Sequence record: MH791411.1
DNA length: 64,000 bases
Strand: one strand, 5' to 3'
Origin: Escherichia phage Ecwhy_1
The position numbers and the translations under genes are program-made. Below the pieces are notes generated by a model. It did no database searches, was not told where the DNA came from, and was given only the letters and a program-made list of their open reading frames with translations. Below, piece after piece: positions 3,635-51,641 of this stretch; position 1 is the stretch's first letter; every line of letters begins with the position of its first letter.

Positions 3635-3940
3635 TTAGTAATCGTCATCTGCTTGTGGCAAATTGTTAGTAACACTTAGGATAGTTTCGATATTATCGAG
3701 TTTGTTTTGTTTATCAAAGTAATCGCCTTTGTAGATACGTTGAGCGGCTTGTTTGATATCGGATGCATCAATACCTAGTTCATCAGAGATGGAACTAATG
3801 AAATCTGCATAGGATGCTTTGGTGTCGTCAATAAAAGTAAGTTGTACTACTGCGTTGTTTAGTGCATCACCTAGACGTTTACGTTGTTCATCATTTAGGT
3901 CACGAATTTCAACTTTAACTTCTTTTTTAGCTTTTGCCAT
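3635..3940 (-). CDS. hypothetical small acidic protein (101 aa)
   Basis: ATG with GGAGAAG SD; C-terminal acidic tail QADDDY. Function not recognisable from sequence. Confidence 0.5.
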   Translation of the reverse strand: MAKAKKEVKVEIRDLNDEQRKRLGDALNNAVVQLTFIDDTKASYADFISSISDELGIDASDIKQAAQRIYKGDYFDKQNKLDNIETILSVTNNLPQADDDY

Positions 3941-6189: not shown

Positions 6190-6230
6190 GTATAAATCCC
6201 TTTAATGATTAATATATACTATATTTATTA

Positions 6231-6539: not shown

Positions 6540-6578
6540 AGAAAATATCTCCATCAGTAATATGAAGATATTTATTAA

Positions 6579-6929: not shown

Positions 6930-6952
6930 CCGTGTCAACTCCTTATGGTTGT

Positions 6953-8009: not shown

Positions 8010-9185
8010 TTACATGAAAGTAACGTTTTTGATAGCGATTTTGCTGTAGTAGTCAGCAGCGTTACCAAGAGAAGAAGTACTATCAGTCAATTGTACATAA
8101 CCATACCTGGTAAGGAAAGTTGTGACCAATTCCCCAGTGTTAGGGTCCATTACAGTACCGGAAGCCATTAGTGGGATGTATGGGCAATAGAACACACCAG
8201 CATCAGTTTCAGCATTACCTTTATAACCAATCAAAATGTCCTCGACATCTGAGGCATACGTATCGACAAAAATACGCATGGTGCTGTTTAGAGTACCAAC
8301 GAATTTAACGTTAGTTGGAGCTTCGAAAGTACCTTCAGTAGTACGTGCAAAACTAGAAGTAGTTGCAGACTGTAGAATGGTTAGAGCGGTTGGAGAAACA
8401 ACAGCCCAGTTCGCAGCACCACGTTTGGTACGACGAGCAACTTCGTTCGCTTGACGGTTGATTAGGGTAGCTAGAGCAGCGTGCTCGTCACCAACGAAGG
8501 TCGCAACACCAGTAACTTTAGATTGGTCATAAGTTACAGCAGCAGCACCAGGTAGTGCACGTAGACGGCTTAGTAGCTCTTGGTCGATTTCAACGGTAAC
8601 TTCTTGAGCGATTGCAGCCATTAGTTCAGCTTCAACATCGATACCATGTTGGGATTGTGCATCTTGTGCAGATTCAACAGTCCAACGTGCAGATAGACGA
8701 CGAGATTTCGCTTCAACAGTTTCACGTAGGATACGGATGTTAACGCGACGACCCATAGTACCTTCTAGTTGGCTAGTAGGAGCAGCTTGTGGGTTGCTGT
8801 TGTCTGCGTTTAGGTCACCAGTATAAGACTTAGCGATTTTGTATGGAGAAAGCATTTCTTCACCAGCGATAACACCAGGAGCGTTGTCAGCATATTGAAC
8901 ACGTAGGGTGTGGATCTGACCAACTGGGCCAGTCATTGGCTGAACACCGATGATTTCGTTAGCGATTACGGTTGGCATAACACGACGCATAATTGGTAGA
9001 ATCACTTTGTTTAGAGTAGCGATGTTACCAGCGGTGGTTGCACCAGAAGTAGCAGATTCGTTTAGCATTAGTTTACGATGGTTATCAAGTACGGTTTCCA
9101 TTACGGACTTACGAGTACCTTGTAGACCTTCAACTAGTTTCTCTTTAACTGCTACCCATTTGGATTCATTTAGTAGTTGTGACAT
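8010..9185 (-). CDS. 23: major capsid protein (T4 gp23 family), 391 aa
   Basis: IANEIIGVQPMTGPVGQIHTLRVQY and NIRILRETVEAKSRRLSARWTVESAQD align to T4 gp23 IAFDICGVQPM... and ...VIEAKSRQLKAAYSIELAQD as recalled; AAGGAG SD. Confidence 0.85.
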   Translation of the reverse strand: MSQLLNESKWVAVKEKLVEGLQGTRKSVMETVLDNHRKLMLNESATSGATTAGNIATLNKVILPIMRRVMPTVIANEIIGVQPMTGPVGQIHTLRVQYADNAPGVIAGEEMLSPYKIAKSYTGDLNADNSNPQAAPTSQLEGTMGRRVNIRILRETVEAKSRRLSARWTVESAQDAQSQHGIDVEAELMAAIAQEVTVEIDQELLSRLRALPGAAAVTYDQSKVTGVATFVGDEHAALATLINRQANEVARRTKRGAANWAVVSPTALTILQSATTSSFARTTEGTFEAPTNVKFVGTLNSTMRIFVDTYASDVEDILIGYKGNAETDAGVFYCPYIPLMASGTVMDPNTGELVTTFLTRYGYVQLTDSTSSLGNAADYYSKIAIKNVTFM

Positions 9186-9220: not shown

Positions 9221-9278
9221 GTATGATATTATTTATAGAACTGAAAAATTTGATTATTAAAATGCTTTAAAATGTTTA
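9221..9278 (-). repeat. ~55-bp late-promoter cassette, copy A (second copy at 11978..12034)
   Basis: GTATGATATTATTTA...ACTGAAAAATTT...TTAAAA-GCTTTAAAA-GT is shared almost verbatim with 11978..12034. Confidence 0.6.
9230..9237 (-). promoter_or_regulatory. T4-type late promoter TATAAATA upstream of the capsid gene
   Basis: Exact TATAAATA on the minus strand about 45 nt upstream of the capsid ATG. Confidence 0.6.
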
Positions 9279-10391
9279 TTTTTTATTGATACCAGAAAGA
9301 ACATCGAGTTCTTTTAGGAATGCCATATCGTCAGCGGTCATTTCTTCGCTTTCAACAATAGCCTGACGGTTGCCAGTGATTACTTTACCTTCTGCAAGAG
9401 TTCTCTTAGCGGAAGACTGAACTGCTTGACGAGTGGTAGCAGATTCATTTACTTTAGTACCGTTAAGTACTGACTTATGGTACTTGCTGAAATCGTCTTT
9501 AAGCTTTTCTGTAGGAGAAGTAGCTAGAAGGGATTCCATAATTTGTTTCTGTTGTGTAGTTAGTGGCTTAACTAGTTCAGACATAATCGCATTACGAGCT
9601 TGTGAATCTTCCATAATACGTAGTTTGGTTTTAGCAGCTTTAACTTCACTTACAGTTTCATTTAGTTCTTGTTTAACTTGTGCAATTTCGTCTTCTTTAG
9701 ACTTAATTGATTCAGTTAGGGAACGTAGTAGTGAATTCTCATTAAATTGTTTGACATTAAACTCTTGAGCAAACGCTTCAAAGATTTTACGACCAAACAT
9801 ATTTTGTTTTGCTTCAACAAGATCTTCTTTCAAAGCGTATAGGTTTTTCTGAGTAGTTTCTGCAATGTATTTAGCAGCACTTTCAGAGGTACGTTTGATG
9901 AAGTTGTTACGTGCTTCAGCAATTTGACGGGAGCCTTCAGCTAGTAGTTTTACGCGAGTTTCAACTAGTTGACGTTTCTCGATGTGGAATTCTTTTAGCT
10001 CTTCTGCTAGGATACCGTTAGAGAAATTAACGAATTTACCCATGCATTCTTGAAGATGCTTACGTTCTTTACGCATTTGTTTAACTTCTTCAGCCAAAAC
10101 AGAGTTAGAAAACGCAGAGAAATTACTTAGGGTTTTACGGAGAGTTACACGATCTTCTACAAGACGTTTTTTCTCTTCATATACTGCACCCATTTCTTCA
10201 GCGATAACTTGAGTAACCATAGTATTTAGACCTTCGGTTAGCTCGGACAAATCTTGTTTGTAGCGGCCTTTCATTTCTTCACGCATTTCTGCGGCAAGTG
10301 TGTTTTTTTCTTCATTCCATGCTTCCTGAATTAGCTGTTTTGCCTCATCAGAAAGAGATGATTCTTTTAGAAGCTTTTCTAATTTAGACAT
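9276..10391 (-). CDS. 22: prohead scaffold/core protein (gp22-like), 371 aa
   Basis: Strongly charged, predicted coiled-coil composition (E/K/L/Q-rich); sits between protease and capsid gene as in T4; AAAGGAGAG SD. Confidence 0.6.
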   Translation of the reverse strand: MSKLEKLLKESSLSDEAKQLIQEAWNEEKNTLAAEMREEMKGRYKQDLSELTEGLNTMVTQVIAEEMGAVYEEKKRLVEDRVTLRKTLSNFSAFSNSVLAEEVKQMRKERKHLQECMGKFVNFSNGILAEELKEFHIEKRQLVETRVKLLAEGSRQIAEARNNFIKRTSESAAKYIAETTQKNLYALKEDLVEAKQNMFGRKIFEAFAQEFNVKQFNENSLLRSLTESIKSKEDEIAQVKQELNETVSEVKAAKTKLRIMEDSQARNAIMSELVKPLTTQQKQIMESLLATSPTEKLKDDFSKYHKSVLNGTKVNESATTRQAVQSSAKRTLAEGKVITGNRQAIVESEEMTADDMAFLKELDVLSGINKK

Positions 10392-10457
10392 TCGTTCTCT
10401 CCTTTAAGTACTGAAATATCTGTACTTCAACATACAAATATTTATATTTTTAAAATG

Positions 10458-12043: not shown

Positions 12044-12271
12044 TTACATTAATCCTGAACCATCACCGGATGGTGCTGCTGCATAAACAACAGCGACAAC
12101 ATTTTTGCGTCGTTGTTCTTCATTAGCTTTAAATTCACGGTACTTTCTTAAATTATTAAGTACTTGTAATGTTAGTTTTGGTTTTCTGGAATCAGTAATT
12201 TTATATACGTTCTGATCATCTTCAGGGTCGTATAAAGAATCACTGCTAGATTCAAAGATGTCCTTTAACAT
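12044..12271 (-). CDS. small head-module protein (75 aa; gp67-like by position)
   Basis: ATG with AAAGGAGA SD; located between portal and core genes. Confidence 0.45.
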   Translation of the reverse strand: MLKDIFESSSDSLYDPEDDQNVYKITDSRKPKLTLQVLNNLRKYREFKANEEQRRKNVVAVVYAAAPSGDGSGLM

Positions 12272-12344
12272 TTCATCTCCTTTGAATATGCATTATAATG
12301 AGGGCAACTAATGTACCCTCATTCTTATACATTGTTATTTATGA

Positions 12345-14093: not shown

Positions 14094-16292
14094 TTAACTG
14101 TTTCTCTCACCTTGGGTGTTTTCAGAGATAGTTCTTAGATAATTATTTGTCTGTTGTACAGCAGATAGTGATTGTTCATTAACATCGGCAAGCTTTTTGA
14201 GTATTTCTTTCATTTCATCAGAAATCGGTGCTGGTGGTCCAGTTCTCGATGTCACTGCACTACCATTATTTATCATCTTCTTAATTGCCTCTGTATCGTC
14301 AGGTTTTGGTGGAACTGGTGGTTCACCTGGTGCCCATGCAGTTTTATCAAAATCTTTACGAGATACAGTTATTTCTGGAGCAACGTTATTGGTTTTTTCA
14401 ATAACAGGACGAATACGTTCTACTCCTGGACGGTTGAATAAACTGTCAGCATAATCAGATGGTAGTGGTTTTGGTTCTTTGTAGTTACGTGAGGTGTTCC
14501 ATTTGTTGAACTTATCCCACATCCCTGCAAAATAATCACTAACACTATTTACACCGTTGTCAATGATGTTGTTTACGCTTTCTGCTGGGGTTTCAGTACT
14601 GTTATTGAGTTTTATATCATTATCAGAACCACCACCGAACCAACTTTTAACAGAATTCCATAGGTTACCTGGTAAATCCATTAAGTTATTCATAAAGGTA
14701 TCAAATGCTTCTGACACTTTAGAGTAACCTGAACCGAATATATCTGCACCCAATCCATCCAACCAAGCTGTAAATTCAGCACCAATACGATCAAGGTAAG
14801 CAATTGCATCTTTAGCAATAGGTACTAACCCAAATCCATCAAGAGCCAATTCCCCAATAAACTCCCATGCACCATCAGTTCTGTCTGCAATGTCAGAAAG
14901 ATAATCCACAATTGAATTTTGTGTATTAGCATACATTGTATTAAATGGTTCAGTGAATTCTTTACTAATCCACATATTGAAGCGGTTAGTAAATTGAGTT
15001 AATTTATCAGCGGGATTATTTTTAGGTTCATTTACGGTTGCTTCCATATCCAATAGTTGTTGGTAGAAGGTTGCAGCAGTTGTGTTTCCTAATTGAATCT
15101 GGTTAAGCAAATCTTGCTTAATTAATTCTTTATTCTTTTTAACGAATTCTAATTGTTGGCGACGAATTTCTTGTGAATCAGTTACACCACTACGTACAAG
15201 ATTTTCACCTAAATCAGCGAACTGGTTCAGTACTGGAGTGAGTAGGTCATCCGGTACGCCACCAATAGACAATCTGTGTGATATCAAACGGAGGAAATCT
15301 GCACCTGCATCACCCATTGCACCCGCAGCTTCGTTGAACGCCTTAGATGTTGCTACAGCAGCTTTACTGGATAGTCCAGAGTAGTTCTGCAATGCAATTT
15401 GCATAGAACGAGTATCGAGTGATTTATCTAGGTTTTGCGTTTTGTTTAGTAATGCATCAACGGATTCACCCATACTTTTACTGAATTTAGTCATGCTCAT
15501 GATAAATTGTTCAGTACTTTTAGCTTGGTCCATACTACGAAGAGCTTCACGACCACCATATTGTTTTTGGAACTTAATGTTTCTTGCAGTTAAATCAGTT
15601 AATGTTTTTTGAGAAATACCATAAAGGCCAAGTTCATTTTGAGCTTGTTGAACAGTTCCTAATAATTTACCAAAGGTAGCAACACCATCACCATATGCCC
15701 CATCCAATTGAGCTACTACAGAACTATGTGTTTGTAGAGCTTCACTGAATGCATCCATACTCAACATAGATGCACCTGCACCTTTCAGTACTGAACCATA
15801 ACCTTCAGCCAATGCAACACCAGCACTGTTAATTCTGGTATATACTTCCAATTGTGCATTAAGTGCGTTATATACAGCAAGACCAGCACCAGTAACGAGT
15901 TTAAATGCTGCTGCCGCTGCACCAATTGGACCTGGCATCATTGCTAATGAACCAGCAAATGATGATGCACTAACGCCTAATGAGTTTACTACAGTACTTA
16001 CGTTCGTACTGGAGTTCATCATTGTTTTGCTTACATTGGAAACTTCAGAAGATAGTGATTTGAACAATTTACCAAATGCTTTCCCATCATCGGCTTGTGC
16101 ACTTCCACGATTTCCACGATTACTGGAAGAACTGGAACTGGAACCATTCTTTTTACTATTTGAACCTGATTTTTTCTTATCATTCTTTATATTTTCAGCT
16201 AATAACTCACGGATAGCAGTCAAACTATCATTGTTATCTTTAGTTTGATTAACCAACTGCTGTAGTAGGTAATCACTTGTATTGACAGCCAT
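14094..16292 (-). CDS. Gly/Ala/Ser-rich virion protein, tape-measure-like or internal/ejection protein (~732 aa)
   Basis: Start taken at MAVNTSDYLLQQ (AAGGGA SD); poly-Ser tract, Ala/Gly-rich helical segments typical of tape-measure proteins; immediately upstream of portal in the same operon. Confidence 0.4.
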   Translation of the reverse strand: MAVNTSDYLLQQLVNQTKDNNDSLTAIRELLAENIKNDKKKSGSNSKKNGSSSSSSSNRGNRGSAQADDGKAFGKLFKSLSSEVSNVSKTMMNSSTNVSTVVNSLGVSASSFAGSLAMMPGPIGAAAAAFKLVTGAGLAVYNALNAQLEVYTRINSAGVALAEGYGSVLKGAGASMLSMDAFSEALQTHSSVVAQLDGAYGDGVATFGKLLGTVQQAQNELGLYGISQKTLTDLTARNIKFQKQYGGREALRSMDQAKSTEQFIMSMTKFSKSMGESVDALLNKTQNLDKSLDTRSMQIALQNYSGLSSKAAVATSKAFNEAAGAMGDAGADFLRLISHRLSIGGVPDDLLTPVLNQFADLGENLVRSGVTDSQEIRRQQLEFVKKNKELIKQDLLNQIQLGNTTAATFYQQLLDMEATVNEPKNNPADKLTQFTNRFNMWISKEFTEPFNTMYANTQNSIVDYLSDIADRTDGAWEFIGELALDGFGLVPIAKDAIAYLDRIGAEFTAWLDGLGADIFGSGYSKVSEAFDTFMNNLMDLPGNLWNSVKSWFGGGSDNDIKLNNSTETPAESVNNIIDNGVNSVSDYFAGMWDKFNKWNTSRNYKEPKPLPSDYADSLFNRPGVERIRPVIEKTNNVAPEITVSRKDFDKTAWAPGEPPVPPKPDDTEAIKKMINNGSAVTSRTGPPAPISDEMKEILKKLADVNEQSLSAVQQTNNYLRTISENTQGERNS

Positions 16293-16437
16293 AACATTCC
16301 CTTTTAATAGATGTATTATAGAAATATTTATGAATCTATAACGAATAAAAAAGACCCATCTATAACATTTGTCCAATTTGTCCCATTTTTTGGTAATAAA
16401 TACTACAGAGACATTTATTACATGGAGATTTAATAAA

Positions 16438-17274
16438 ATGGCAATGAACCCACTAGCTAAGTATACTAAAATTGAAGAACTTGGTACAAAATTGGTCACA
16501 AATGGCGTGATTCCTTATAAAGAAGGAGTTCTTGGCTCTAAAGGTATCAAATGTGGCATTTGTGCTCGTAGTGCACGCGATGAAATGACACTCAATACAC
16601 CAGATATGCTTCTAAATGGTGATGCAATTGCTCGTGTTATTGAAAACTGCGTACCTAACGTACTTGATGCAGATGAACTTTATGTAAATGACGTAGAGCA
16701 ACTACTTATCGCTATTAAAGTAGCTTCTAAAGAAGAATCATATGATATTAATGTGACATGTCCTGAATGTAACAAAGAAGGCCGTTTTGAGCGTAGCTTA
16801 TCATATCTACTAGAAACAGCACAAACTTTCAGTGAAGTTCCTACTGTACAATTGGATAATGGACTAAGTTTAGAGTTTAGACCACTTACTTGGAAGGAAT
16901 ATTCTAACTTCGCAGAAAGAATGTTTACAGAACAACAAAAAACTAAATTCCTTGAAACTGCCGAAATGGAGCAGGAAGAAAAAGTTAAAGTGTTTGGTGA
17001 AGTATTTGAAAGTATGGCACAACTCAACTTTGATATGATCGCAGGAGTTATTGCTAAAGTAATTACTCCTGAAGGTGATGAAGTAACTGAAAACGAATTC
17101 ATTGCTGAATGGCTAGGTCAGCAGTCCAAAGGAACACTTAAAATAATTCGTGAAAAAATGGATGAAGTACTTGAAATTGGTGTTTCCCATACTATGGAAG
17201 TTGAATGCAGTGACTGTAATCATCAATGGGAAATTAATGGACTGAAATATGACCCAAGTCATTTTTTCGCATAA
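16438..17274 (+). CDS. hypothetical zinc-binding protein (~278 aa) with three C-x2-C motifs
   Basis: CGIC, CPEC and CSDC motifs; GGAGA SD; AATAAATA late-type motif upstream. Confidence 0.5.
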   Translation: MAMNPLAKYTKIEELGTKLVTNGVIPYKEGVLGSKGIKCGICARSARDEMTLNTPDMLLNGDAIARVIENCVPNVLDADELYVNDVEQLLIAIKVASKEESYDINVTCPECNKEGRFERSLSYLLETAQTFSEVPTVQLDNGLSLEFRPLTWKEYSNFAERMFTEQQKTKFLETAEMEQEEKVKVFGEVFESMAQLNFDMIAGVIAKVITPEGDEVTENEFIAEWLGQQSKGTLKIIREKMDEVLEIGVSHTMEVECSDCNHQWEINGLKYDPSHFFA

Positions 17275-17523: not shown

Positions 17524-18323
17524 GGTTTTAAACTACAGAATTGATTGAATTGAATTATGAAAGGAATTAATTATTTTATAGTGAACTCATCTAACTCATT
17601 TCATTCGTTAGCTGAAGAATATTCGTTACTACGTAACTCATATTCATTTCTTATAATTAATTATAAAGAACTTTAAAAGATTTAATACTTGACGGGATTT
17701 GTTGAAGACATTTTCATCCCCCCGCAGGGGAATGAAGACAATAAAAAAGAGACAATTAAGTCTCTTAATTCTTGACGCTGATGGTTTCAGCATTTATTGT
17801 ATTGCGAATTTCTTAAAATTCATTAAGAACGAAAGCGGGTTGCTCTGTTTCTCTCTATCGCAGTCATGTGCAACGGTCGTCAGTCTTAATCATCCTGACA
17901 CTCACCTGAAAGTCTATACAATCAAACTTCAGGCTGTTTATTAAATCACTTAATAAACTCCCTTAGCAAATCTGGTAAGGTGCGATCCTTATACATCTAT
18001 CGAGGAACTCTCTGTATGCTTATCGGAGTTCTTTATTGAGCCGTGTCGCCGTGAGGGGTTCAAACTATGCCCACATCTAACGGGTTTCTTCTGCTCATCG
18101 CACTGTTGAACTGCTCATCTGCCATCTACATTTTCGATAGGATCAGGTTCTAATTTATATGCATTTCTGCATTCAACAGGATTGTCATCACTACAATTAA
18201 CATTATAGCACCAAATTCAAAAGTGTCTCACTATTATGATAAAAAATTTATAAAAAGTACATAATTCTTGAACATTGAAGTAACGCATAAATATTTTGAT
18301 AAGAATTAGTTTAGTGGGGATTT

Positions 18324-18815
18324 ATGAAGAAAAGATTAAAAGATAGTAAAGAAGCTGCAAACTATCGAAATGAATTACTAAAGAAGCAAAAAGGAATTGA
18401 TCCTATAATTAAGGAACCAATCACTAAGCCAGTACTTGATCACTATCACTTCGAGAATCAACACTGTCGTGAAGTTCTCCAGAACGAAGTGAACGCATGG
18501 GAAGGTAAAGTACAGAACAGCTTTAATCGCTATATGAAGCACTTAACCGATAAACCCTTATACGAGGTACTACGAAATCTTGCGGATTATCTGGAGCGTA
18601 ATAACAGCATTCCTGAAGATGAGCAAGTTATACATCACACTGCACTAACAATCGATACGAATAAGTTTAAAAGGCTCCCAGCAGGACAACAGAATGCAAT
18701 ACTGGAAGAGTTAGGTGTTATCCCTGGTGCAAACAATGCTGCTCGTGTTAAGCAAGCCAGAAAGCTTATCAAGGAAGGCAAATTAAATATGGTAGATATA
18801 AAAAAAGGGAGCTAA
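18324..18815 (+). CDS. endonuclease VII-like (T4 gp49-like) HNH-type nuclease, 163 aa
   Basis: LDHYHFENQ...NEVNAWEGKVQNSFNR...DYLERN resembles T4 EndoVII HLDHDHELNG...NAAEGQMKHKFNR...DYLEWLEN as recalled; CATAAATA late-type motif about 30 nt upstream. Confidence 0.5.
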   Translation: MKKRLKDSKEAANYRNELLKKQKGIDPIIKEPITKPVLDHYHFENQHCREVLQNEVNAWEGKVQNSFNRYMKHLTDKPLYEVLRNLADYLERNNSIPEDEQVIHHTALTIDTNKFKRLPAGQQNAILEELGVIPGANNAARVKQARKLIKEGKLNMVDIKKGS

Positions 18816-20993: not shown

Positions 20994-22025
20994 TTATAGT
21001 GATCTGTAAATTTGGATTAGAAGATTTTTATCGAACATAGGTGAATCAATTTCCATGATTTGTTGTAACACAATCTCATCAACTGACTCAGTACTTTCAA
21101 AGCTTTCACCATCTTCAATAAGTTCTTTGATACTTTGCTTGCTAGTAACAACGTTAAACTCACGAATGTTATAAAGTTTAGTAAAAGTATCACGAATAAA
21201 ACTAATCTCATCAGTAGTGATAGCAATATCAACTTGAACCTTTGAAATAGTATTGTCTTGAAGATAATAACTTGGATCTGTTAATAGTTCTGAAAGTGTA
21301 AATGTTCTATATTTTGGTGCTTCTGACCAAGAATGGAAAGTTGGTTCTTTACCATGTTCTAAAATCATCACACCTCTTGCATCATCCCATGTATCAGAAA
21401 AGTTATGTGGGAAACAGTTACCTGTGTAAATTACACGAGTTCCTTTAGATGTTGTTTTTGCTTGTCTCTTGTGGAAATGTCCACTAAAAACATACTCACA
21501 ACCACCAAAAGAACCTTCAGTCTCTTTACCATGATCTGGCATCTCAACCATTTTATTGAGCAAGTATCCAGGTAACTCTAAGTGACCAAAAACATACTTA
21601 CTTTTAAGTTGAGGTAGAACTTTGTATTCATCTTCAATCATAAATGGAATGAAAGTACAATCATCAAATGTTGTGATTTCATTAATGAACTCGATGTTCT
21701 CATAAACTTGTGCCATATTAATACTAGTAATGTCACGTTTATTTTTATGATACATGTCATGGTTCCCAACTAAGAAGTAAACCTTATCAAAGTTGTCATT
21801 TAGTAATTGTAGAATTTGTAAACCATAGTTTAATGTTTGAATGTTAATATTACTGCGGTTATGGAAGTAATCTCCCATAAACACGCATACAGTAATACCA
21901 TTTTTCTTAGCAAGTTCAATCATAAACTTGATGAAGTTCAAACAATCTTCGTTGTGCTGCTTGCTGTTATTCTTTAATCCTAAATGAATATCAGTAAATG
22001 TAATTGCTTTATCAAATAGAGCCAT
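20994..22025 (-). CDS. 47: Mre11/SbcD-like nuclease (gp47-like), ~343 aa
   Basis: Calcineurin-like phosphoesterase motifs FTDIHLG, GDYFH, GNHD, GHLE, SGHFH; ATG at 22025 with AAAGGA SD (track ORF starts 18 nt earlier). Confidence 0.85.
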   Translation of the reverse strand: MALFDKAITFTDIHLGLKNNSKQHNEDCLNFIKFMIELAKKNGITVCVFMGDYFHNRSNINIQTLNYGLQILQLLNDNFDKVYFLVGNHDMYHKNKRDITSINMAQVYENIEFINEITTFDDCTFIPFMIEDEYKVLPQLKSKYVFGHLELPGYLLNKMVEMPDHGKETEGSFGGCEYVFSGHFHKRQAKTTSKGTRVIYTGNCFPHNFSDTWDDARGVMILEHGKEPTFHSWSEAPKYRTFTLSELLTDPSYYLQDNTISKVQVDIAITTDEISFIRDTFTKLYNIREFNVVTSKQSIKELIEDGESFESTESVDEIVLQQIMEIDSPMFDKNLLIQIYRSL

Positions 22026-22851
22026 CTTCGTTTTTCCTTTCAATCATGTTCATTTCAATTTCGATTTGACGAGTGTGTGATGGTGTAAAACCATGCATCT
22101 CAAGTAAATCGTCTCGGATGTTACGAACATTTTTCTCACTATTAAGAATCGAACGGAAACTATTGTTAACGAACGAAGTATAGTAAGAGAAAGGATTCAA
22201 CTGTACTGCTGGTTTATCTTTTTTGTAAAGAATACTCTCTTTAAAGAGAAGTGCGTTTTTAACTAATTGTATTCTGGCATCACCCATCATTTCATCCAAA
22301 TATGTATAGTTTCTATAGTTGGATTTGTGTGAGATTTCCTCTGCCAGTTTAATGAACATTTTACCTAGTTCATTAGTGATTTTACCATGAACAGTACTGA
22401 ATTCTCCGTCTTCAAGATCACCTTTCCAGTGAGAACGAACGACTTCGTACAGAATACCTTCTTCATCTACAATGTAATGTTTGAATGGTTCAAAATTTAC
22501 TCTTGTATCTGCTGGGATATGTTCATCGGTAATTACACGAATAACCACCTCATCGATAGGTACATCAGTCAGTACTAAATTGTGCTCATCTGCGTATTCC
22601 TTCGCTTTCTTCGCACTCATACCTTCTTTTTCACGAATTGCATCAAGCATTTCATTGTTGAGACGTTTAATACGTGCTGCTTTAGCTTTATCTAAAAGTT
22701 CTGCTGTAATTTCGGATTCATCAAAAACGATATAATCGTACATACTGTAGCACTTATCTAGTAACCAGCAATATGAGATTTTACTTTTTTGTATCTCACG
22801 AAGTAAATCAGCATTGTTAAGATACTTTTTACGCTTCGGCCTATTTGTCAT
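22012..22851 (-). CDS. 55: late-transcription sigma factor (gp55-like) with ~120-aa internal insertion, ~279 aa
   Basis: KYLNNADLLREIQKSK resembles T4 gp55 KYNYVNNKELLQAIIDWK; LGKMFIKLAEEISHKSNYRNYTYLDEMMGD and NPFSYYTSFVNNSFRSIL resemble the gp55 core as recalled; GGAGAG SD. Confidence 0.65.
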   Translation of the reverse strand: MTNRPKRKKYLNNADLLREIQKSKISYCWLLDKCYSMYDYIVFDESEITAELLDKAKAARIKRLNNEMLDAIREKEGMSAKKAKEYADEHNLVLTDVPIDEVVIRVITDEHIPADTRVNFEPFKHYIVDEEGILYEVVRSHWKGDLEDGEFSTVHGKITNELGKMFIKLAEEISHKSNYRNYTYLDEMMGDARIQLVKNALLFKESILYKKDKPAVQLNPFSYYTSFVNNSFRSILNSEKNVRNIRDDLLEMHGFTPSHTRQIEIEMNMIERKNEDGSI

Positions 22852-22908
22852 TATTTCAACTCTCCATGTTTTAAATCCAATAGGTACATTCCTTGTACCA
22901 TCAATGTT

Positions 22909-22936
22909 ATTATAGCACCAAAAACGTCTTTGTCCC
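22909..22936 (-). promoter_or_regulatory. sigma70-like promoter (GGGACA-N16-TATAAT) for the gp55-gp47-gp46 operon
   Basis: TATAAT at 22914-22909 and GGGACA at 22936-22931 read on the minus strand. Confidence 0.4.
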
Positions 22937-22939
22937 ACG

Positions 22940-22947
22940 TATAAATA
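22940..22947 (+). promoter_or_regulatory. T4-type late promoter TATAAATA for the baseplate operon
   Basis: Exact TATAAATA 36 nt upstream of the 22983 ATG. Confidence 0.65.
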
Positions 22948-22982
22948 CATCAAATGTTCCCTTCTTATGGAGAATCAAAAAG

Positions 22983-23714
22983 ATGATTGATCGTAGAATC
23001 CGATTAAGACCTAAAACCGCAGGTGCTAACTATGTGTATGGTGATTTTGGCAACAGTTCAGAACCAACATTGCTATCGTTTCTGCGTCCAACAAATGGTT
23101 TGGTTTGGACTGTAACCCCAACTGTAACTGAACAAAGGTCGGTTCAATATGAAACACAGTCCCCTATACATACTAACAGTAACTACAACAACTACAAGAA
23201 TACAACAAACACTGTTTTCACTATTCAAGGTGAGTTTTATGCGAACACTGCTGCTGAAGCAATGTATGCATTGGCTTGTGTTCATTTTATTCGTTCCGTG
23301 TCCTTAATGGACTTTGGTCGTCAAGCAGCATCTGCTAATAATCCCGAACTAGCAATTGCAGGTGCACCACCGCCAATTTTACTATTAAGTGGGTATGGTC
23401 GTTATACATATAATGATATTCCTGTTATTTTGAAAGCATATAATTTTACATATCCAAATGATGTTTCTTACATTCAGGTTCCATTGAATAGTAGTGATAG
23501 TACTTTTAATTTATCTGATATGGATAGTCGTAAATTCTTCGAACAGCTTAGAAGTACTGGATATATGAATCCACAAGATGAGGTATGGGTTCCACAGAAA
23601 ATATCGGTAACGCTTCAACTTGAAGAACAACCAACATCTGATTACATGACTAAAAAGTTCAACCTAAATGCATTTAAGCGTGGTGAACTATTACGTAATG
23701 GAGGATTTATCTAA
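22983..23714 (+). CDS. baseplate/tail structural protein (~243 aa)
   Basis: Start taken at MIDRRIRL with GGAGAA SD; first gene after the late promoter in the baseplate module. Function inferred from position only. Confidence 0.4.
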   Translation: MIDRRIRLRPKTAGANYVYGDFGNSSEPTLLSFLRPTNGLVWTVTPTVTEQRSVQYETQSPIHTNSNYNNYKNTTNTVFTIQGEFYANTAAEAMYALACVHFIRSVSLMDFGRQAASANNPELAIAGAPPPILLLSGYGRYTYNDIPVILKAYNFTYPNDVSYIQVPLNSSDSTFNLSDMDSRKFFEQLRSTGYMNPQDEVWVPQKISVTLQLEEQPTSDYMTKKFNLNAFKRGELLRNGGFI

Positions 23715-28984: not shown

Positions 28985-28992
28985 TATAAATA
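28985..28992 (+). promoter_or_regulatory. T4-type late promoter TATAAATA for the lysozyme gene
   Basis: Exact TATAAATA 18 nt upstream of the 29010 ATG, preceded by TTTCAGTAC as at the capsid promoter. Confidence 0.6.
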
Positions 28993-29009: not shown

Positions 29010-29498
29010 ATGAGTAAATGGGAAATCAAAAATACCGACGAACAATTTTTTAAAGAAATTAAAGAATTTGAAGGTACTATTGCGTATCAGAAAAAACTTG
29101 GTTATTTTAAAAATGATAAGTTTTGGGTATATAAAGACAGTCTAGGTCTTGATACCATTGGTTACGGTCACCTTGTACTTAAGGGTGAAAGTTTCAAAAA
29201 TGGACTCACTGAAGCAGAAGCTGATGCTCTCCTTATAAAAGATGCTCAGACCGCTTACAATGACGCAAAATCAATCTATGATCAATTTGGAATGACTGCT
29301 CCAGTACAGGTTCAGCGTGTATTGTGGTTTATGGTGTTCCAAATGGGTAAATCAAAAGTTTTAAATTTCAAAAAAGCGATGGCTGCTCTCGGTCGTGGTG
29401 ATTATAAAACTGCTGGTAAAGAAATGCGTGATAGTTCGTGGTACAAACAAACCACATCCAGAGCGGAGAAGATGGCTCGCATCGTCGAATCCGTATAA
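29010..29498 (+). CDS. e: lysozyme / endolysin, GH24 (T4 gene e-like), 162 aa
   Basis: EFEGT...YKDSLGLDTIGYGHL...MVFQMG...WYKQTTSRAEK matches T4 lysozyme motifs including the catalytic Glu/Asp/Thr; paralogous to the C-terminus of the spike. Confidence 0.9.
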   Translation: MSKWEIKNTDEQFFKEIKEFEGTIAYQKKLGYFKNDKFWVYKDSLGLDTIGYGHLVLKGESFKNGLTEAEADALLIKDAQTAYNDAKSIYDQFGMTAPVQVQRVLWFMVFQMGKSKVLNFKKAMAALGRGDYKTAGKEMRDSSWYKQTTSRAEKMARIVESV

Positions 29499-29915: not shown

Positions 29916-29945
29916 AAAGCACTCTTCGGGGTGCTTTTCTTTTTG
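29916..29945 (+). terminator. rho-independent terminator
   Basis: AAGCACTC-ttcg-GGGTGCTT hairpin followed by TTTCTTTTT. Confidence 0.7.
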
Positions 29946-30011
29946 GATAAATATTTCTATATATAATTCCCAGTACTGAACTAGTACTTTACTGATTTAA
30001 AGGAATAAATT

Positions 30012-33000
30012 ATGTCACAACAAAAAAGGCAATCAAATTTATACGCTGGTGAAGATTGGACTCAAGTATATGAAAGCTTTTATAAGATCAATCTAACAGC
30101 TTATGACTTTGATACAATCCGTCAAAGTATGATTGACTATCTACGTGCTACGTACCCAGATTCTTTCAACGACTGGATCGAAAACGACCAGTTCATCTTT
30201 ATTCTAGATACCATTTCTATGCTAGGACAGAACTTAGCATTCCGTATGGATTTAAACACTCGTGAGAACTTCCTAGATACTGCTACTCGTCGTGCATCAG
30301 TACTGAAACTCGCAAAAATGATTTCTTACTCTCCACGCCGTTCATATCCAGGTCGTGCAGTTGCTAAATTAACAGAAATAAAAACCAACCAAGACGTTCG
30401 TAATAGTTTTAACGAATCACTTAAGGATAAAATCATTCGTTGGAATGACCCAATGGACACAAACTGGTATGAGAACTTCATTCTAGTTATGAACAGTTCA
30501 TTTGTCAGTACTAACCAGTTTGGTAATCCGGTTAAACGTATCGATATCAATGGTGTTTCTCGTCAGCTATATCGTATGAATACAATTCCAATGTCAGCAC
30601 CAAGTCTTCCATTCACAGCTACAGTTAATGGTGAATCGATGACATTTGAAGTTGTCAACCCTGATATTACAGCAGTTGGTGTTGAAGAGCGTCACCCTGA
30701 ACCACAAGAGCAAAAATATATCGTTTATCAGAATGATGGTAACGGATTTAGTTCACCAAATACTGGTTTCTTCGTTTATTTTGTTCAAGGGACATTGACA
30801 TACCAAGATTACCAATATAATATTCGTGAAGAAAACCGTATCCAAGACATCAACGTAGATAATATCAACGAAACTGATGTTTGGGTTCAGGAAATCAACG
30901 AAGATGGTATTGTACGTACTAAATGGACCAAAGTTCCATCTATGGAAAGTATCGCATACAATACTGTTAACCGTCAACTAAAAACAATCTTTGCTGTCAC
31001 AACTCGTGATAAAGACCAGATTACTATTAAGTATCCTGATTCTCGTAGTGGTGTTGTTCCTCGTGGGACGTATCGTGTATGGTATCGTGTTAGTAATGGT
31101 GAAACATACAACATTAAAACGTCTGAAATCCAGAACAAAAGTGTAAAATACACCTATAGAACCAAAACACAATCAAGCTATGAATCCAGTACTTTGGATA
31201 TTCGTTTCACATTGCAATATGAATCAGATCGTGCACAAAGTGCAGAAACAATTGAACAAATTAAGGCTCGTGCTCCACAAATGTATTACACTCAAAACCG
31301 TTTTGTTAACGGCGAAGACTATAACATTGCTCCGTTGAGTTTGGGTAACACAGTTCTTAAATCGAAAGCAATTAACCGTTTATATAGTGGACAGTCACGA
31401 TTCATTGATATTAATGATCCAACTGGTAAGTATCAAAACACTGATGTGTTTAGTGATGATGGTTCAATGTATCAAGAAAACACACAATTTAATAAATCTT
31501 TACAATTACCAACTACCAAAACAAATGCTAGTATTGTAATTGATAATATTCAGCCATTGATTGGTGAGAATGCTGTAATCCAACGTTATCAAGCATATCC
31601 ACCGAATACAATTGGTATTGAAATTCAACAAAAATGGACACCTGAATACAATTCTAATTACGCAACTAATACGTATGGTCGTATTATGGGGGCAACAGGT
31701 AACGTATTCGGAAATTATCAAGTTGGTACGTTGATTAAGTTTTCAAATGCCGGAACTACTGTGTGGGCTAGTATTGTTAGTGTTCTTGATAATGGATATT
31801 ACGTTCTAAGTACTTCAGTTTCATCAAATATGCAAGCACAAGAGTACATTTTACAATACAGAACACGTTTTAATAGTGTCGAAGTGCAAGCAATCGCTGC
31901 AATGCTTGATAAAAAGACAGATTTTGTTATTATTCATGATAAAGAAACAACTTCTTGGATTCCATTAGAAATCAGTACTGATGAAGATACTATTTCTTAT
32001 AATGGAAATGAAGTTCTTGTTATGATTAACATCAAATATACTGCTGAAACCTGGGAATTTGATGCGAATGGCGTTGAATATGTGTTCGTTGGTGGTGATA
32101 AAGTTCGTTTTTACTTCGTTTCTTCTAAAAAGATAACTGATATTAGTACTGGTAGTGTTCAAAGTGACAAAATTGAAATTTTATCATCAAATACCACAAG
32201 CAATAGTAATGCTGGGTTGACAAGTAACATAGATTTCCAAATTTATGACACAATTCAACAAGAAAACGGGTATCTTGATGGTTCTCGTGTGGTTATCACC
32301 TCTGAAAACGTTGATAGTAATGGAATCCCACTAGAACCTAATCAATTCAGAGAAATTGTACCAAATTGGACTGGTGAAGATTCAGTTAAATATGGTGGTA
32401 TATTGGTTTTCCAAGAAAACGATGATTTCACTATATCAGTACTGTCATTACCGAATGATACTTTCACTATTCTTGATTCTTCATGGGCTTATACAATGGA
32501 TCAAGCACTTGCAGAAACTAATGCGTATAAGAGAAGTGAATTTGTTCGCAACAATGCTATTCGATCAACAACATTGAGTGGTATCTATAGTAAAGGTTCA
32601 GGCTTTATAGTTGGCTTTAACTATGATGGTAAATATTACTTCATTGAACAAACTGTTGGTAATAATAATGACCGTTTAAACCAATTAATTGAGAACTTGA
32701 CCTATTCTGATGATACAACTGCTGCAACTCCTGAACTTGCGTTTTATCGTGCTATTGTTAATATCGGTACTAATGCTGATGTTAACCAAAAGTTAGATTA
32801 TTATGGTTATAAAGATGTAACTTCACAATATACCGTAAAAACGAATGCAAGAACTGGTATTGATTTCCACTGGAAACATTATGCACCAGATGATAATCGC
32901 ATTGACCCAAGTAGAACAAACTTGATTGACATGTATGTATTAACCAATTCATACAAAACTGAAGTTGATGTATGGTTGAAGAATGGAACACAAGGTAATA

Positions 33001-33473
33001 TGCCTAAACCGCCAACATCTGTTGAATTGAAAGACATTTTTAAAGAAGTTGAACAAAAAATAGTCATCAGTGACAGTATTATTTGGCATAGTGCAGAATA
33101 TCTACCATTATTTGGTGCGAGTGCTGCTGAAGATTATAAAGCAGATTTTAAAGTCGTCAAATTGCCTAACAGTACAATGAGTGATGATGAAATTCGTCAA
33201 AATGTCGTAGCACTAACTAACGAGTATTTTAATGTTGACAACTGGGATTTTGGTGAAAGTTTCTATTACACAGACTTGTGTACATACATTCATTCCCAAT
33301 TAGGACGACATATTAGTACTATTGTTATCGTAGCTCAAAACCCTAACTCTAAATTTGGCTCACTATTTGAAATCCCTTCACGTTCTGACCAGATTTTCTT
33401 AAGTACTGCATCAGTTGATAACGTACAGATAGTCAATTCCTTGGCTAAGAGTAACATTAACATTGGTTCATAA
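30012..33473 (+). CDS. 6: baseplate wedge protein, baseplate-J (gp6-like) family, 1153 aa
   Basis: N-terminal region DYLRATYPDSFNDWIENDQFIFILDTISMLGQNLAFRMDLNTRENFLDTATRRASVLKLAKMISYSPRR is typical of baseplate J / gp6; follows gp25-like as in P2 W-J. Confidence 0.6.
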   Translation: MSQQKRQSNLYAGEDWTQVYESFYKINLTAYDFDTIRQSMIDYLRATYPDSFNDWIENDQFIFILDTISMLGQNLAFRMDLNTRENFLDTATRRASVLKLAKMISYSPRRSYPGRAVAKLTEIKTNQDVRNSFNESLKDKIIRWNDPMDTNWYENFILVMNSSFVSTNQFGNPVKRIDINGVSRQLYRMNTIPMSAPSLPFTATVNGESMTFEVVNPDITAVGVEERHPEPQEQKYIVYQNDGNGFSSPNTGFFVYFVQGTLTYQDYQYNIREENRIQDINVDNINETDVWVQEINEDGIVRTKWTKVPSMESIAYNTVNRQLKTIFAVTTRDKDQITIKYPDSRSGVVPRGTYRVWYRVSNGETYNIKTSEIQNKSVKYTYRTKTQSSYESSTLDIRFTLQYESDRAQSAETIEQIKARAPQMYYTQNRFVNGEDYNIAPLSLGNTVLKSKAINRLYSGQSRFIDINDPTGKYQNTDVFSDDGSMYQENTQFNKSLQLPTTKTNASIVIDNIQPLIGENAVIQRYQAYPPNTIGIEIQQKWTPEYNSNYATNTYGRIMGATGNVFGNYQVGTLIKFSNAGTTVWASIVSVLDNGYYVLSTSVSSNMQAQEYILQYRTRFNSVEVQAIAAMLDKKTDFVIIHDKETTSWIPLEISTDEDTISYNGNEVLVMINIKYTAETWEFDANGVEYVFVGGDKVRFYFVSSKKITDISTGSVQSDKIEILSSNTTSNSNAGLTSNIDFQIYDTIQQENGYLDGSRVVITSENVDSNGIPLEPNQFREIVPNWTGEDSVKYGGILVFQENDDFTISVLSLPNDTFTILDSSWAYTMDQALAETNAYKRSEFVRNNAIRSTTLSGIYSKGSGFIVGFNYDGKYYFIEQTVGNNNDRLNQLIENLTYSDDTTAATPELAFYRAIVNIGTNADVNQKLDYYGYKDVTSQYTVKTNARTGIDFHWKHYAPDDNRIDPSRTNLIDMYVLTNSYKTEVDVWLKNGTQGNMPKPPTSVELKDIFKEVEQKIVISDSIIWHSAEYLPLFGASAAEDYKADFKVVKLPNSTMSDDEIRQNVVALTNEYFNVDNWDFGESFYYTDLCTYIHSQLGRHISTIVIVAQNPNSKFGSLFEIPSRSDQIFLSTASVDNVQIVNSLAKSNINIGS

Positions 33474-33479
33474 CACATT

Positions 33480-33507
33480 AAGGCGTTCTTCGGAACGTCT
33501 TTTTTAT
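33480..33507 (+). terminator. rho-independent terminator
   Basis: GGCGTTC-ttcg-GAACGTC hairpin followed by TTTTTTAT. Confidence 0.7.
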
Positions 33508-33553
33508 ATCATAAATAAATCAAATGAATGAACGAATTATATGGAGTCCAAAA

Positions 33554-51532: not shown

Positions 51533-51641
51533 TGTTAAGCCCTTTTAGTAGTGAACTTTCATTTATTTATTAATGGCAACGAAATGTATTTTGTACTGAT
51601 AAATATTGGTATATGACATTAACTCATACAAGGGAAATATT

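What the first reader, a model, noticed from the sequence alone, without database searches (positions are those of the whole stretch)
22012..22851. gp55-like late sigma factor carrying a ~120-aa insertion
N-terminal and C-terminal blocks resemble T4 gp55, which is 185 aa, but this ORF is ~279 aa, with an extra segment between the N-terminal helix and the core. Together with the TATAAATA-type promoters seen across the window, this suggests T4-style late transcription with a modified sigma factor, possibly an added regulatory domain.
Basis: partly seen in the sequence, partly recalled or inferred. Interest (0 to 1): 0.45.

Follow-up and report, generated by a model that had tools for sequence, protein, structure and literature searches.

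The report
Long-form gp55 late sigma factor
This gene encodes the late-gene sigma factor of a known E. coli jumbo phage, a relative of phage T4 gp55 with a conserved extra 117-residue domain of unknown fold and untested function spliced between its first and second helices.

Summary
The ORF at 22012-22851 (-) is 279 aa, has a good ribosome-binding site, and comes from an Asteriusvirus (RaK2-like) jumbo coliphage that is 99.7% identical to GenBank records.

Profile comparison splits T4 gp55 across the protein. T4 residues 3-24 match residues 1-24. T4 residues 23-130 match residues 142-256 (98.5% probability). Residues 25-141 are therefore a true internal insertion, not an N-terminal extension.

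The motif ATAAATA occurs 16 times. Fourteen copies lie in the 5.5% non-coding DNA, 7-65 nt upstream of genes, most of them annotated as structural.

The insertion folds confidently on its own (pLDDT 94). It has no match in PDB, Pfam or NCBIfam and was found only inside gp55-like proteins. Its beta module is as conserved as the sigma core across 172 diverse relatives; its helical hairpin is variable.

The protein lacks T4's C-terminal clamp-binding tail.

The gene is already annotated as a late sigma factor (PHROG 12791; the CBB phage paper). I found no description of the insertion, and its function is only inferred.

The parts
22012..22851 (-). CDS of the long-form gp55-like late sigma factor (279 aa plus stop codon)
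   Evidence: It is 100% identical to a protein of Escherichia phage EC.P1. In vB_Ec-M-J the homologue is annotated 'sigma factor for late transcription'.
22780..22824 (-). Residues 10-24, helix H1 block (KYLNNADLLREIQKSK), equivalent to T4 gp55 residues 10-24. Includes Y10, N13 and K24.
   Evidence: hhalign of the N-terminal piece against short gp55s gives 90-96% probability, and HMMER finds a weak stretch there. In the model residues 13-25 are helical. N13 contacts the -9 adenine in T4 (PMC7892883). It is kept in 88% of 172 relatives.
22429..22779 (-). Insertion, residues 25-141 (117 aa), absent from T4 and cyanophage gp55
22720..22779 (-). Insertion, first beta segment, residues 25-44 (SYC..D..Y.YD.IV)
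   Evidence: Strands at residues 28-30 and 40-42 in the models. D39 is conserved at 91% and I41 at 87%.
22552..22719 (-). Insertion, variable helical hairpin, residues 45-100
   Evidence: Helices 50-76 and 80-89. Conservation is low, with gaps in up to 32% of relatives. Some relatives lack it (P0232, P0261) or expand it (P0124, P0136).
22429..22551 (-). Insertion, conserved beta module, residues 101-141 (VV.RV.T.EHIP ... NF.PFKHY ... EV.RSH)
   Evidence: R105, H111, P113, F120, P122, F123, H125, V137, S140 and H141 are each kept in 91-99% of 172 relatives. Strands at residues 104-107, 123-128 and 134-139.
22096..22428 (-). Sigma region 2-like core, residues 142-252 (helices H2-H4 of gp55)
22024..22077 (-). 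C-terminal helix, residues 259-276 (second helix of the helix-loop-helix). The protein ends at residue 279 with no clamp-binding tail.
   Evidence: Model. Alignment A3 shows the LDFLYE-type tail in T4-type gp55s; it is absent here.
22860..22865 (-). Ribosome-binding site GGAGAG, 8 nt before the ATG
   Evidence: Read directly from the sequence.
22909..22936 (-). Sigma-70-like promoter for the gene: GGGACA, 16-nt spacer, TG-extended TATAAT
   Evidence: Consensus scan, 10 of 12 matches. This is a consensus match only. A distant relative has TTGACT-17-TATAAT in the same place.
22941..22947 (+). ATAAATA late-promoter-like motif (here the full TATAAATA), 36 nt before the divergent virion gene 22983-23714
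6222..6228 (-). ATAAATA, intergenic, 33 nt upstream of gene 4561-6189
6569..6575 (-). ATAAATA, intergenic, 15 nt upstream of gene 6231-6554
9230..9236 (-). ATAAATA (full TATAAATA), 45 nt upstream of the major capsid protein gene 8010-9185
10439..10445 (-). ATAAATA (full TATAAATA), 48 nt upstream of gene 9276-10391
12336..12342 (-). ATAAATA, 65 nt upstream of gene 12044-12271
16325..16331 (-). ATAAATA, 33 nt upstream of the tape measure gene 14094-16292
16396..16402 (+). ATAAATA, 36 nt upstream of the baseplate hub gene 16438-17274
18287..18293 (+). ATAAATA, 31 nt upstream of gene 18324-18815 (annotated endonuclease VII)
28986..28992 (+). ATAAATA (full TATAAATA), 18 nt upstream of gene 29010-29498
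29947..29953 (+). ATAAATA, 59 nt upstream of the baseplate wedge gene 30012-33473
33511..33517 (+). ATAAATA, 7 nt upstream of the ATG at 33524, the first in-frame ATG of the 3333-codon ORF 33524-43525
51564..51570 (-). ATAAATA, 32 nt upstream of gene 51035-51532
51599..51605 (+). ATAAATA, 37 nt upstream of gene 51642-52769
20994..22025 (-). gp47/SbcD-like nuclease gene. Its start overlaps the end of the sigma gene by 14 nt. The 55-47-46 synteny matches T4-like phages.
3635..3940 (-). Homologue of T4 DsbA, the dsDNA-binding protein that binds late promoters in T4
   Evidence: phrog_639 E 1.6e-7. T4 DsbA itself scores 2e-40 in that family.

Best explanation
The gene encodes the late-gene promoter-specificity subunit of an Asteriusvirus (RaK2-like) jumbo coliphage.

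Shown or directly supported:
- It is a single-domain sigma factor of the T4 gp55 type: helix H1, then a sigma region 2-like bundle, then a helix-loop-helix. It has no regions 3 or 4.
- A 117-residue domain (residues 25-141) is inserted between H1 and H2.
- The 7-mer ATAAATA sits 7-65 nt upstream of 14 genes in the window, most of them annotated as structural.

Inferred from homology with the solved T4 complex:
- The protein binds the beta-prime clamp helices of host core RNA polymerase through E187 and D191.
- It reads ATAAATA on the unwound non-template strand through the pocket residues N13, F203, F221, Y223 and T225. K240 contacts the template strand.
- The gene itself is probably transcribed earlier, from a sigma-70-like promoter.

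Inference only (about 0.35 for this step):
- H1 probably corresponds to sigma region 1.2, so the insertion leaves the fold where the non-conserved region of E. coli sigma-70 is inserted.
- The protein lacks the sliding-clamp-binding tail of T4 gp55.
- The insertion is therefore most likely an accessory module that adds contacts to RNA polymerase or to the upstream fork of the promoter. That would stabilise the holoenzyme or open complex at promoters with no -35 element.
- Its conserved beta module would be the functional part and its helical hairpin a variable spacer.
For: Identity:
- PHROG 12791, E 9e-153.
- Profile against PDB chain 7d7c_F, E 1.3e-7.
- hhalign 98.5%, E 3e-15.
- Of 11 T4 residues shown by mutagenesis or structure to contact DNA or polymerase (PMC7892883), six are identical (N13, E70, D74, F86, Y97, T99). 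Three are conservative replacements (L54 to I, R57 to K, R114 to K). H95 is F, as in cyanophage gp55. E77 is I.
- 55-47-46 synteny as in T4-like phages, kept in a relative of 44% identity.

Promoters:
- 14 of 16 ATAAATA copies lie in the 5.5% non-coding DNA, on the coding strand, 7-65 nt upstream of gene starts. About 18% of other 7-mers of the same composition are intergenic.
- The pattern repeats in a distant relative.
- The CBB phage paper predicted the same motif (PMC5259590).

Insertion:
- Split alignment.
- Confident independent fold.
- The beta module is as conserved as the sigma core in 172 relatives.
- It was found only in gp55-like proteins.
- There is no C-terminal LDFLYE-type tail.
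Against: - No experiment exists for this protein or any long-form relative.
- I could not read the model coordinates, so I did not see where the insertion points relative to polymerase or DNA.
- The insertion is net acidic in this protein, about -10 over residues 26-141. That argues against general DNA binding.
- A clamp loader is encoded in a close relative, so a divergent clamp, and clamp coupling by another route, may exist.
- Iyer et al. (PMC7824862) state that group 2 jumbo phages have a gp33 orthologue. The CBB paper found none.
Confidence: 0.72

Rival explanations
1. The insertion is a docking or regulatory platform for another protein, such as a phage co-activator, a replisome component or an anti-sigma-like regulator. 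It would couple or time late transcription by a route other than the T4 C-terminal clamp-binding tail. The sigma-factor identity is unchanged.
For: - The insertion is net acidic, which fits a protein-protein surface.
- The beta module has many invariant surface-type residues (R105, H111, H125, H141), consistent with a conserved partner.
- The T4-type tail is missing although a clamp loader is encoded.
- C-terminal tails in the family vary between aromatic/acidic, AT-hook-like and none, which suggests that the means of tethering is evolutionarily plastic.
Against: - No partner has been identified.
- No gp33 or gp45 is annotated in the 190 kb inspected.
- There is no similarity to gp33.
- This rival cannot be separated from the best explanation with these tools.
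Confidence: 0.3
2. The extra length is an N-terminal extension, not an insertion. On this reading T4 helix H1 corresponds to residues 123-141, and residues 1-122 are an added N-terminal domain.
For: - The default hhalign run gave one contiguous alignment, window 123-258 to T4 7-132.
- PHROG 234 matches residues 128-262.
- tblastn to cyanophage gp55 starts at residue 116-124.
- Y126 and W142 line up with the conserved aromatics Y10 and W23 of T4.
Against: - On its own, the stretch 100-160 does not match the T4 N-terminus (probability 0.4%). Residues 1-24 do (90-96%, ungapped; Y10, N13 and K24 kept).
- Residues 123-139 are a confident beta hairpin in the model, whereas residues 13-25 are a helix like T4 H1.
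- N13, which is functionally essential in T4, would align with the variable D129.
Confidence: 0.05
3. The insertion has no specific function. It would be a tolerated structural embellishment of a surface loop, kept only because it has become part of the fold.
For: - The helical hairpin is poorly conserved, and is deleted or expanded in relatives.
- T4 and cyanophage gp55 work without any insertion.
Against: The beta module is kept in every one of about 170 representatives clustered at 50% identity. More than ten of its positions are over 90% conserved, equal to the DNA-contact residues of the core.
Confidence: 0.1

Closest known systems
Bacteriophage T4 gp55 (185 aa; PDB 7D7C/7D7D; PHROG 234)
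   Same: - H1 motif Y-(V/L)-N-N..LL..I...K.
- NP(H/F)xY(I/Y)T promoter-reading motif.
- E/D residues that bind the clamp helices.
- A promoter that is essentially (T)ATAAATA.
- A gene next to genes 47 and 46.
   Different: - A 117-residue folded domain replaces the roughly 15-residue H1-H2 linker.
- No C-terminal sliding-clamp-binding tail (SLDFLYEAND in T4).
- The T4 region after residue 130 is not alignable.
- The promoter consensus lacks the first T.
gp55 of cyanophages and other T4-like phages (for example S-SSM7, 160 aa)
   Same: The same core and H1 motif (HYVNNKEFL). F at the position of T4 H95, as here. A gene near gene 47.
   Different: No insertion, and a short protein.
Annotated late sigma factors of RaK2-like jumbo phages (PHROG 12791; CBB_244 in PMC5259590; 121Q, PBECO4, phAPEC6, RaK2, GAP32, PA5oct)
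   Same: The same protein family with the same full-length architecture. Identity to this protein is 40-100%.
   Different: None in kind. The literature I could search calls them gp55-like but does not describe the insertion.
Non-conserved region of E. coli sigma-70, between regions 1.2 and 2.1
   Same: It is also a lineage-specific domain inserted at what appears to be the same topological point of the sigma region 2 fold. It is also acidic. [quoted passage not shown]

Membership tests
T4 gp55-type late sigma factor | Sequence homology to gp55 | tested here: met
   hhalign 98.5%, E 3e-15. Family profile against 7d7c_F, E 1.3e-7. PHROG 234, E 1e-16.
T4 gp55-type late sigma factor | Fold: H1-H4 sigma region 2-like bundle plus helix-loop-helix, with no sigma regions 3 or 4 | tested here: met
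   [not shown]
T4 gp55-type late sigma factor | Conserved residues that read the -10-like element (T4 N13, L54, R57, F86, H95, Y97, T99, R114) | tested here: met
   By alignment, these map to N13, I173, K176, F203, F221, Y223, T225 and K240. Four are identical (N13, F86, Y97, T99) and three are conservative (L54 to I, R57 to K, R114 to K). H95 is F, as in cyanophages.
T4 gp55-type late sigma factor | Acidic residues of H3 that bind the beta-prime clamp helices (T4 E70, D74, E77) | tested here: inconclusive
   E187 and D191 are kept. The third position is I194.
T4 gp55-type late sigma factor | TATAAATA-type promoters in front of late genes | tested here: met
   ATAAATA: 14 of 16 copies are intergenic and upstream of genes, most of them annotated structural. 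Only 4 are the full T4 octamer.
T4 gp55-type late sigma factor | C-terminal sliding-clamp-binding motif | tested here: not met
   The protein ends ...IERKNEDGSI right after the last helix. The LDFLYE-type tail is present throughout the T4-type alignment A3.
T4 gp55-type late sigma factor | Partner proteins gp33 (co-activator) and gp45 (sliding clamp) in the same genome | tested here: inconclusive
   - A clamp loader is present.
- No clamp or gp33 is annotated in 100.5-290 kb of vB_Ec-M-J. The rest of that genome was not inspected.
- The CBB paper found none. Iyer et al. report a gp33 orthologue in group 2 jumbo phages.
- A DsbA homologue is present in the window.
T4 gp55-type late sigma factor | Binds host core RNA polymerase and directs late transcription | not testable with these tools
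   Needs biochemistry or transcript mapping.
Long-form gp55 subfamily (PHROG 12791) | Full-length match including the insertion | tested here: met
   E 9e-153 over residues 3-277 against profile positions 2-284 of 286.
Sigma-70 non-conserved region (as homologue) | Structural or sequence similarity of the inserted domain | tested here: not met
   [not shown]
Intein | Hint-domain splicing residues at the junctions (Cys/Ser at the N-terminal junction; His-Asn followed by Cys/Ser/Thr at the C-terminal one) | tested here: not met
   The junctions of residues 25-141 have none of these and Pfam finds no Hint domain. Apparent inteins do occur in other family members, at different sites.

The most novel reading that the evidence does not exclude
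The conserved beta module of the insertion is a built-in co-activator. It would do in cis what gp33 plus the gp45 sliding clamp do in trans for T4. Late transcription in this very large clade of jumbo phages would then be independent of a DNA-loaded clamp, and so not mechanically coupled to replication. T4's three-protein system and this one-protein system would be alternative solutions built on the same minimal sigma factor.
Probability: 0.2. Interest if true: 0.65.

Novelty: new variant of a known kind. Interest (0 to 1): 0.4.

Why it matters
T4 late transcription is the textbook case of a minimal sigma factor that needs a sliding clamp as its activator. Geiduschek and Kassavetis asked how widespread that device is (PMC2988020).

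This work shows a very large group of gp55 relatives with a different architecture:
- In a library of representatives clustered at 50% identity, 344 score E of 1e-30 or better.
- Every one of about 170 that I examined has an extra, highly conserved domain at the position where sigma-70 carries its non-conserved region.
- C-terminal tails in the family vary widely. This protein has none.

If the domain replaces or changes clamp-dependent activation, it would show a second way to make a promoter with no -35 element efficient. It would also give a simple two-component system, E. coli core polymerase plus one protein, in which to study it.

If the domain proves to be only structural, the finding is just a more accurate domain annotation of a gene that is already annotated.

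Tried and rejected
- **Pfam and NCBIfam:** no family for the protein, for T4 gp55 or for the insertion.
- **N-terminal extension model:** suggested by the default hhalign run and rejected by piecewise hhalign.
- **Insertion as a fused gp33:** no similarity.
- **Insertion as an intein or mobile element:** no splicing residues and no Hint domain.
- **Metal site from the conserved H111, H125 and H141:** could not be tested without coordinates. The strand register places H125 and H141 several residues apart along the hairpin, so I do not claim a site.
- **General DNA-binding surface:** not supported. The insertion is net acidic.
- **Insertion-only profile search:** 17 hits. The eight new hits tested by motif carry the sigma core motif; a ninth, P0395, lacks it and ends abnormally. 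The other hits were already known family members.
- **Search for a clamp near the clamp loader of vB_Ec-M-J:** EcMJ_414-417 have no Pfam, PHROG-function or PDB sequence match. Unresolved.
- **Raw count of TATAAATA or ATAAATA:** not enriched, in fact below the shuffled expectation. Only the positions are informative.
- **Literature:** no paper in the searchable library describes the insertion.
Full report
**What is there**

The minus-strand ORF at 22012-22851 starts at an ATG with GGAGAG 8 nt upstream and encodes 279 aa. The longer mechanical ORF, from a TTG at 22953, is not credible. The aligned homologues and the GenBank annotation of vB_Ec-M-J start at the ATG, and the extension contains a sigma-70-like promoter.

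The window is 99.5-99.7% identical to several Escherichia jumbo phages of the genus Asteriusvirus, the RaK2-like group with genomes of 350-385 kb. The protein is 100% identical to one in phage EC.P1. Several records annotate it as 'sigma factor for late transcription'.

Its neighbours are the gp47 (SbcD-like) and gp46 (SbcC-like) nuclease genes downstream. A baseplate and virion gene block lies upstream and is read divergently. The 55-47-46 order is that of T4 and the cyanophages. A metagenomic relative whose sigma factor is only 44% identical keeps the same arrangement.

**Is it a gp55 homologue?**

Yes. Several independent lines agree.
- PHROG 12791 'sigma factor for late transcription' matches the full length (E 9e-153). 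The T4-type family PHROG 234 matches at E 1e-16.
- A profile of 39 relatives finds T4 gp55 (PDB 7d7c_F) at E 1.3e-7.
- Profile-profile comparison with 29 short gp55s gives 98.5% probability and E 3e-15.
- Foldseek found nothing, and neither Pfam nor NCBIfam has a gp55 model.

The cryo-EM study of T4 late transcription (PMC7892883) lists the functional residues of gp55. Mapped through the alignment, they correspond as follows.

| T4 gp55 | This protein | Role in T4 |
|---|---|---|
| N13 | N13 | contacts the -9 adenine |
| L54 | I173 | promoter pocket |
| R57 | K176 | promoter pocket |
| F86 | F203 | promoter pocket |
| H95 | F221 (F in cyanophages too) | promoter pocket |
| Y97 | Y223 | stacks on the -12 adenine |
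| T99 | T225 | contacts the -8 adenine |
| R114 | K240 | template-strand phosphate |
| E70 | E187 | binds clamp helices |
| D74 | D191 | binds clamp helices |
| E77 | I194 | binds clamp helices |

**Insertion or N-terminal extension?**

This was the one real ambiguity.
- HMMER split T4 gp55 in two. T4 1-26 matched profile positions 1-26, weakly. T4 23-116 matched positions 151-245.
- The default hhalign run gave one contiguous alignment instead, window 123-258 to T4 7-132. That would make residues 1-122 an N-terminal extension.
- I tested the pieces separately. Residues 1-48 match the N-terminus of short gp55s, ungapped over residues 1-24, at 90-96% probability (E 2e-6 to 9e-9). Residues 100-160 do not (0.4%). 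With alternative alignments switched on, the full profiles give both blocks: 142-256 to T4 23-130, and 1-24 to T4 3-24.
- The model agrees. Residues 13-25 form a helix, like T4 H1. Residues 123-139 form a beta hairpin.

T4 and cyanophage gp55s have about 15 residues there.

**Anatomy and distribution of the insertion**

Modelled alone, residues 26-158 reach pLDDT 93.7 and pTM 0.83. The elements in order are:
- two short strands (28-30 and 40-42);
- a long helical hairpin (50-76 and 80-89);
- a beta module (strands 104-107, 123-128 and 134-139).

I aligned 172 diverse relatives, mostly from the best 150 of that search.
- All of them have H1, the beta module and the sigma core.
- The beta module is as conserved as the core. 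R105, H111, P113, F120, P122, F123, H125, V137, S140 and H141, followed by W142, G149, F151 and G156 at the start of the core, are each kept in 90-99% of sequences.
- The hairpin (residues 61-100) is poorly conserved. It is missing in some proteins of 216-230 aa (P0232, P0261, P0160) and enlarged in others.

A profile of the insertion alone recovered 17 proteins. Eight of the nine new hits carry the NPFAYYT-type core motif, the ninth (P0395) does not, and the other hits were already known family members. The module is therefore not known in any other context.

In this protein the insertion is net acidic, about -10.

**Promoters**

- The octamer occurs 4 times against 7 expected. ATAAATA occurs 16 times against 25 expected.
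- Fourteen of the 16 heptamers lie in the 5.5% of the window that is non-coding. All 14 are on the strand of the next gene and 7-65 nt from its start: capsid, tape measure, baseplate hub and wedge, tail fibres and others.
- About 18% of other 7-mers of the same composition are intergenic. Only 2 ATAAATA copies lie at least partly within the 60 kb of coding sequence, which suggests selection against internal copies.
- An A is favoured 12-13 nt after the first A of the motif, which is the T4 start-site spacing. A weak T-rich tract lies 7-12 nt upstream.
- The same motif precedes baseplate genes in the relative of 44% identity.
- The phage CBB paper predicted the motif at 35 sites (PMC5259590).

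The sigma gene itself has a sigma-70-like promoter with an extended -10 element. The distant relative has one as well. This fits expression before the late phase.

**What is missing relative to T4**

- T4-type gp55s end in a conserved LDFLYE-like sliding-clamp-binding tail (PMC2988020). This protein stops three residues after its last helix.
- In the family as a whole the tails vary. Some are aromatic and acidic (FDFGD, ILTYDD), at least 14 are AT-hook-like (KRGRKPK), and some proteins have none.
- The CBB authors found no gp33 or gp45 (PMC5259590). Iyer et al. say group 2 jumbo phages have a gp33 orthologue (PMC7824862).
- In 190 kb of the annotated relative vB_Ec-M-J I saw a clamp loader (PHROG 168) but no annotated clamp or gp33. 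I did not inspect the remaining 188 kb.
- The window does encode a homologue of T4 DsbA, the protein that binds late promoters in T4.

**How it most likely works**

The steps below follow from homology with the solved T4 complex, not from direct evidence.
- The protein replaces the host sigma factor on core RNA polymerase by binding the beta-prime clamp helices.
- It recognises ATAAATA as flipped bases of the non-template strand.
- Its helix-loop-helix guides the template strand.

The role of the insertion is a weaker inference.
- It leaves the sigma fold between H1 and H2.
- H1 probably corresponds to region 1.2. The model aligns with 92 of 96 residues of an RpoS fragment containing regions 1.2 and 2, and N13 contributes to a base pocket.
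- If so, this is the point where E. coli sigma-70 carries its acidic non-conserved region. [quoted passage not shown]
- I therefore favour an accessory contact module for polymerase or the upstream fork, at about 0.35.
- A docking site for an unknown partner is nearly as likely, at 0.3.
- A purely structural role is unlikely given the conservation, at 0.1.

I could not read the model coordinates, so the orientation of the insertion relative to polymerase was not examined.

**Novelty and verdict**

The gene and its assignment are already in the databases and in one paper, so the sigma-factor call itself is not new. I found no description of the insertion, of its position, or of how widespread the long form is.

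I rate it a new variant of a known kind, of moderate interest (0.4). It is a well-defined and easily testable architectural variant of a textbook protein, but no function has yet been shown for the new part.

Noticed in passing
Related proteins P0127, P0141, P0142, P0145, P0151, P0163, P0167, P0169, P0188, P0190, P0194, P0203, P0208, P0210, P0216, P0234, P0239, P0242, P0255, P0266; and, with two inserts, P0211, P0238, P0247, P0259, P0265: About 30 of roughly 170 representative long-form gp55 proteins carry a large intein-like insert of roughly 140-340 residues. In the four sequences I read (P0127, P0163, P0211, P0247) it starts with Cys and ends ..GN before Thr or Ser. It sits between NWRGY and TYLDEM, which in this protein is between Y182 and T183, in the H2-H3 linker. 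In the others it is inferred from the break in the profile match. Five have a second insert inside H4, just after the promoter-reading YYT motif (read in P0211 and P0247). I saw no mention of inteins in gp55-type sigma factors in the papers I read, but I did not search for the topic.
   Followed up: partly
C-termini of related proteins (for example P0133, P0175, P0187, P0200, P0217, P0227, P0236, P0259, P0265, compared with P0096, P0099, P0110, P0111): C-terminal tails of the long-form family fall into three classes: AT-hook-like KRGRKPK tails (at least 14 representatives), aromatic/acidic tails resembling clamp-binding motifs (FDFGD, ILTYDD, LFPFDD), and no tail (this protein). This suggests different ways of tethering the sigma factor to DNA.
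   Followed up: partly
window 3635-3940 (-): A 101-aa ORF just upstream of the DNA polymerase gene belongs to the T4 DsbA family (phrog_639, E 1.6e-7). T4 DsbA binds late promoters, and in T4-like phages its gene is translationally coupled to gene 33. Here no gp33-like gene follows it.
   Followed up: partly
whole window; sites listed under parts: ATAAATA is strongly depleted inside genes: only 2 copies lie at least partly within 60 kb of coding sequence, counting both strands, against 15-34 for other 7-mers of the same composition. This is consistent with selection against internal late promoters. A weak T-rich tract lies 7-12 nt upstream of the motif, and an A is favoured at the expected start site.
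   Followed up: yes
window 29919-29953 and 33482-33517 (+): Two late-promoter motifs are immediately preceded by GC-rich hairpins with cTTCGg loops and T tracts (gcactcTTCGgggtgc-ttttctttttgg; ggcgttcTTCGgaacgtc-ttttttatatc). They look like compact terminator-promoter cassettes between late genes.
   Followed up: no
window 16325-16402 and 51564-51605: Back-to-back divergent ATAAATA motifs, 35-70 nt apart, drive oppositely oriented structural genes (tape measure versus baseplate hub; 51035-51532 versus 51642-52769).
   Followed up: no
window 22883-22899 (-): A 6-bp hairpin (GGTACA-AGGAA-TGTACC) followed by a T-rich stretch lies in the leader of the sigma gene, between its sigma-70-like promoter and its ribosome-binding site. 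It could be a regulatory or stabilising leader structure.
   Followed up: no
window 22012-22025 (-): The last 14 nt of the sigma gene, including its stop codon, overlap the start of the gp47-like gene. This suggests translational coupling of 55 and 47.
   Followed up: no
window 33524-43525 (+): A single ORF of 3333 codons, annotated 'virion structural protein' in relatives, follows the baseplate wedge gene.
   Followed up: no
window 6231-7876 (-): A small cluster of ORFs lies between the major capsid gene and a tail fibre gene. Relatives annotate two of them as endonuclease and homing endonuclease, and the 107-aa ORF at 6231-6554 matches endonuclease PHROG 681. They look like mobile nuclease genes inserted in the late region.
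   Followed up: no
OQ718158.1 265853-269138 (locus L008 2054-5339), outside the window: Next to the clamp loader (EcMJ_412) lie EcMJ_414 (188 aa) and EcMJ_415 (226 aa), the same sizes as T4 gp62 (187 aa) and gp45 (228 aa). EcMJ_417 (375 aa) is the size of a bacterial beta clamp. All lack Pfam or PDB sequence matches, and 414 and 415 are labelled 'virion structural protein'. Whether any of them is a divergent clamp was not resolved.
   Followed up: partly
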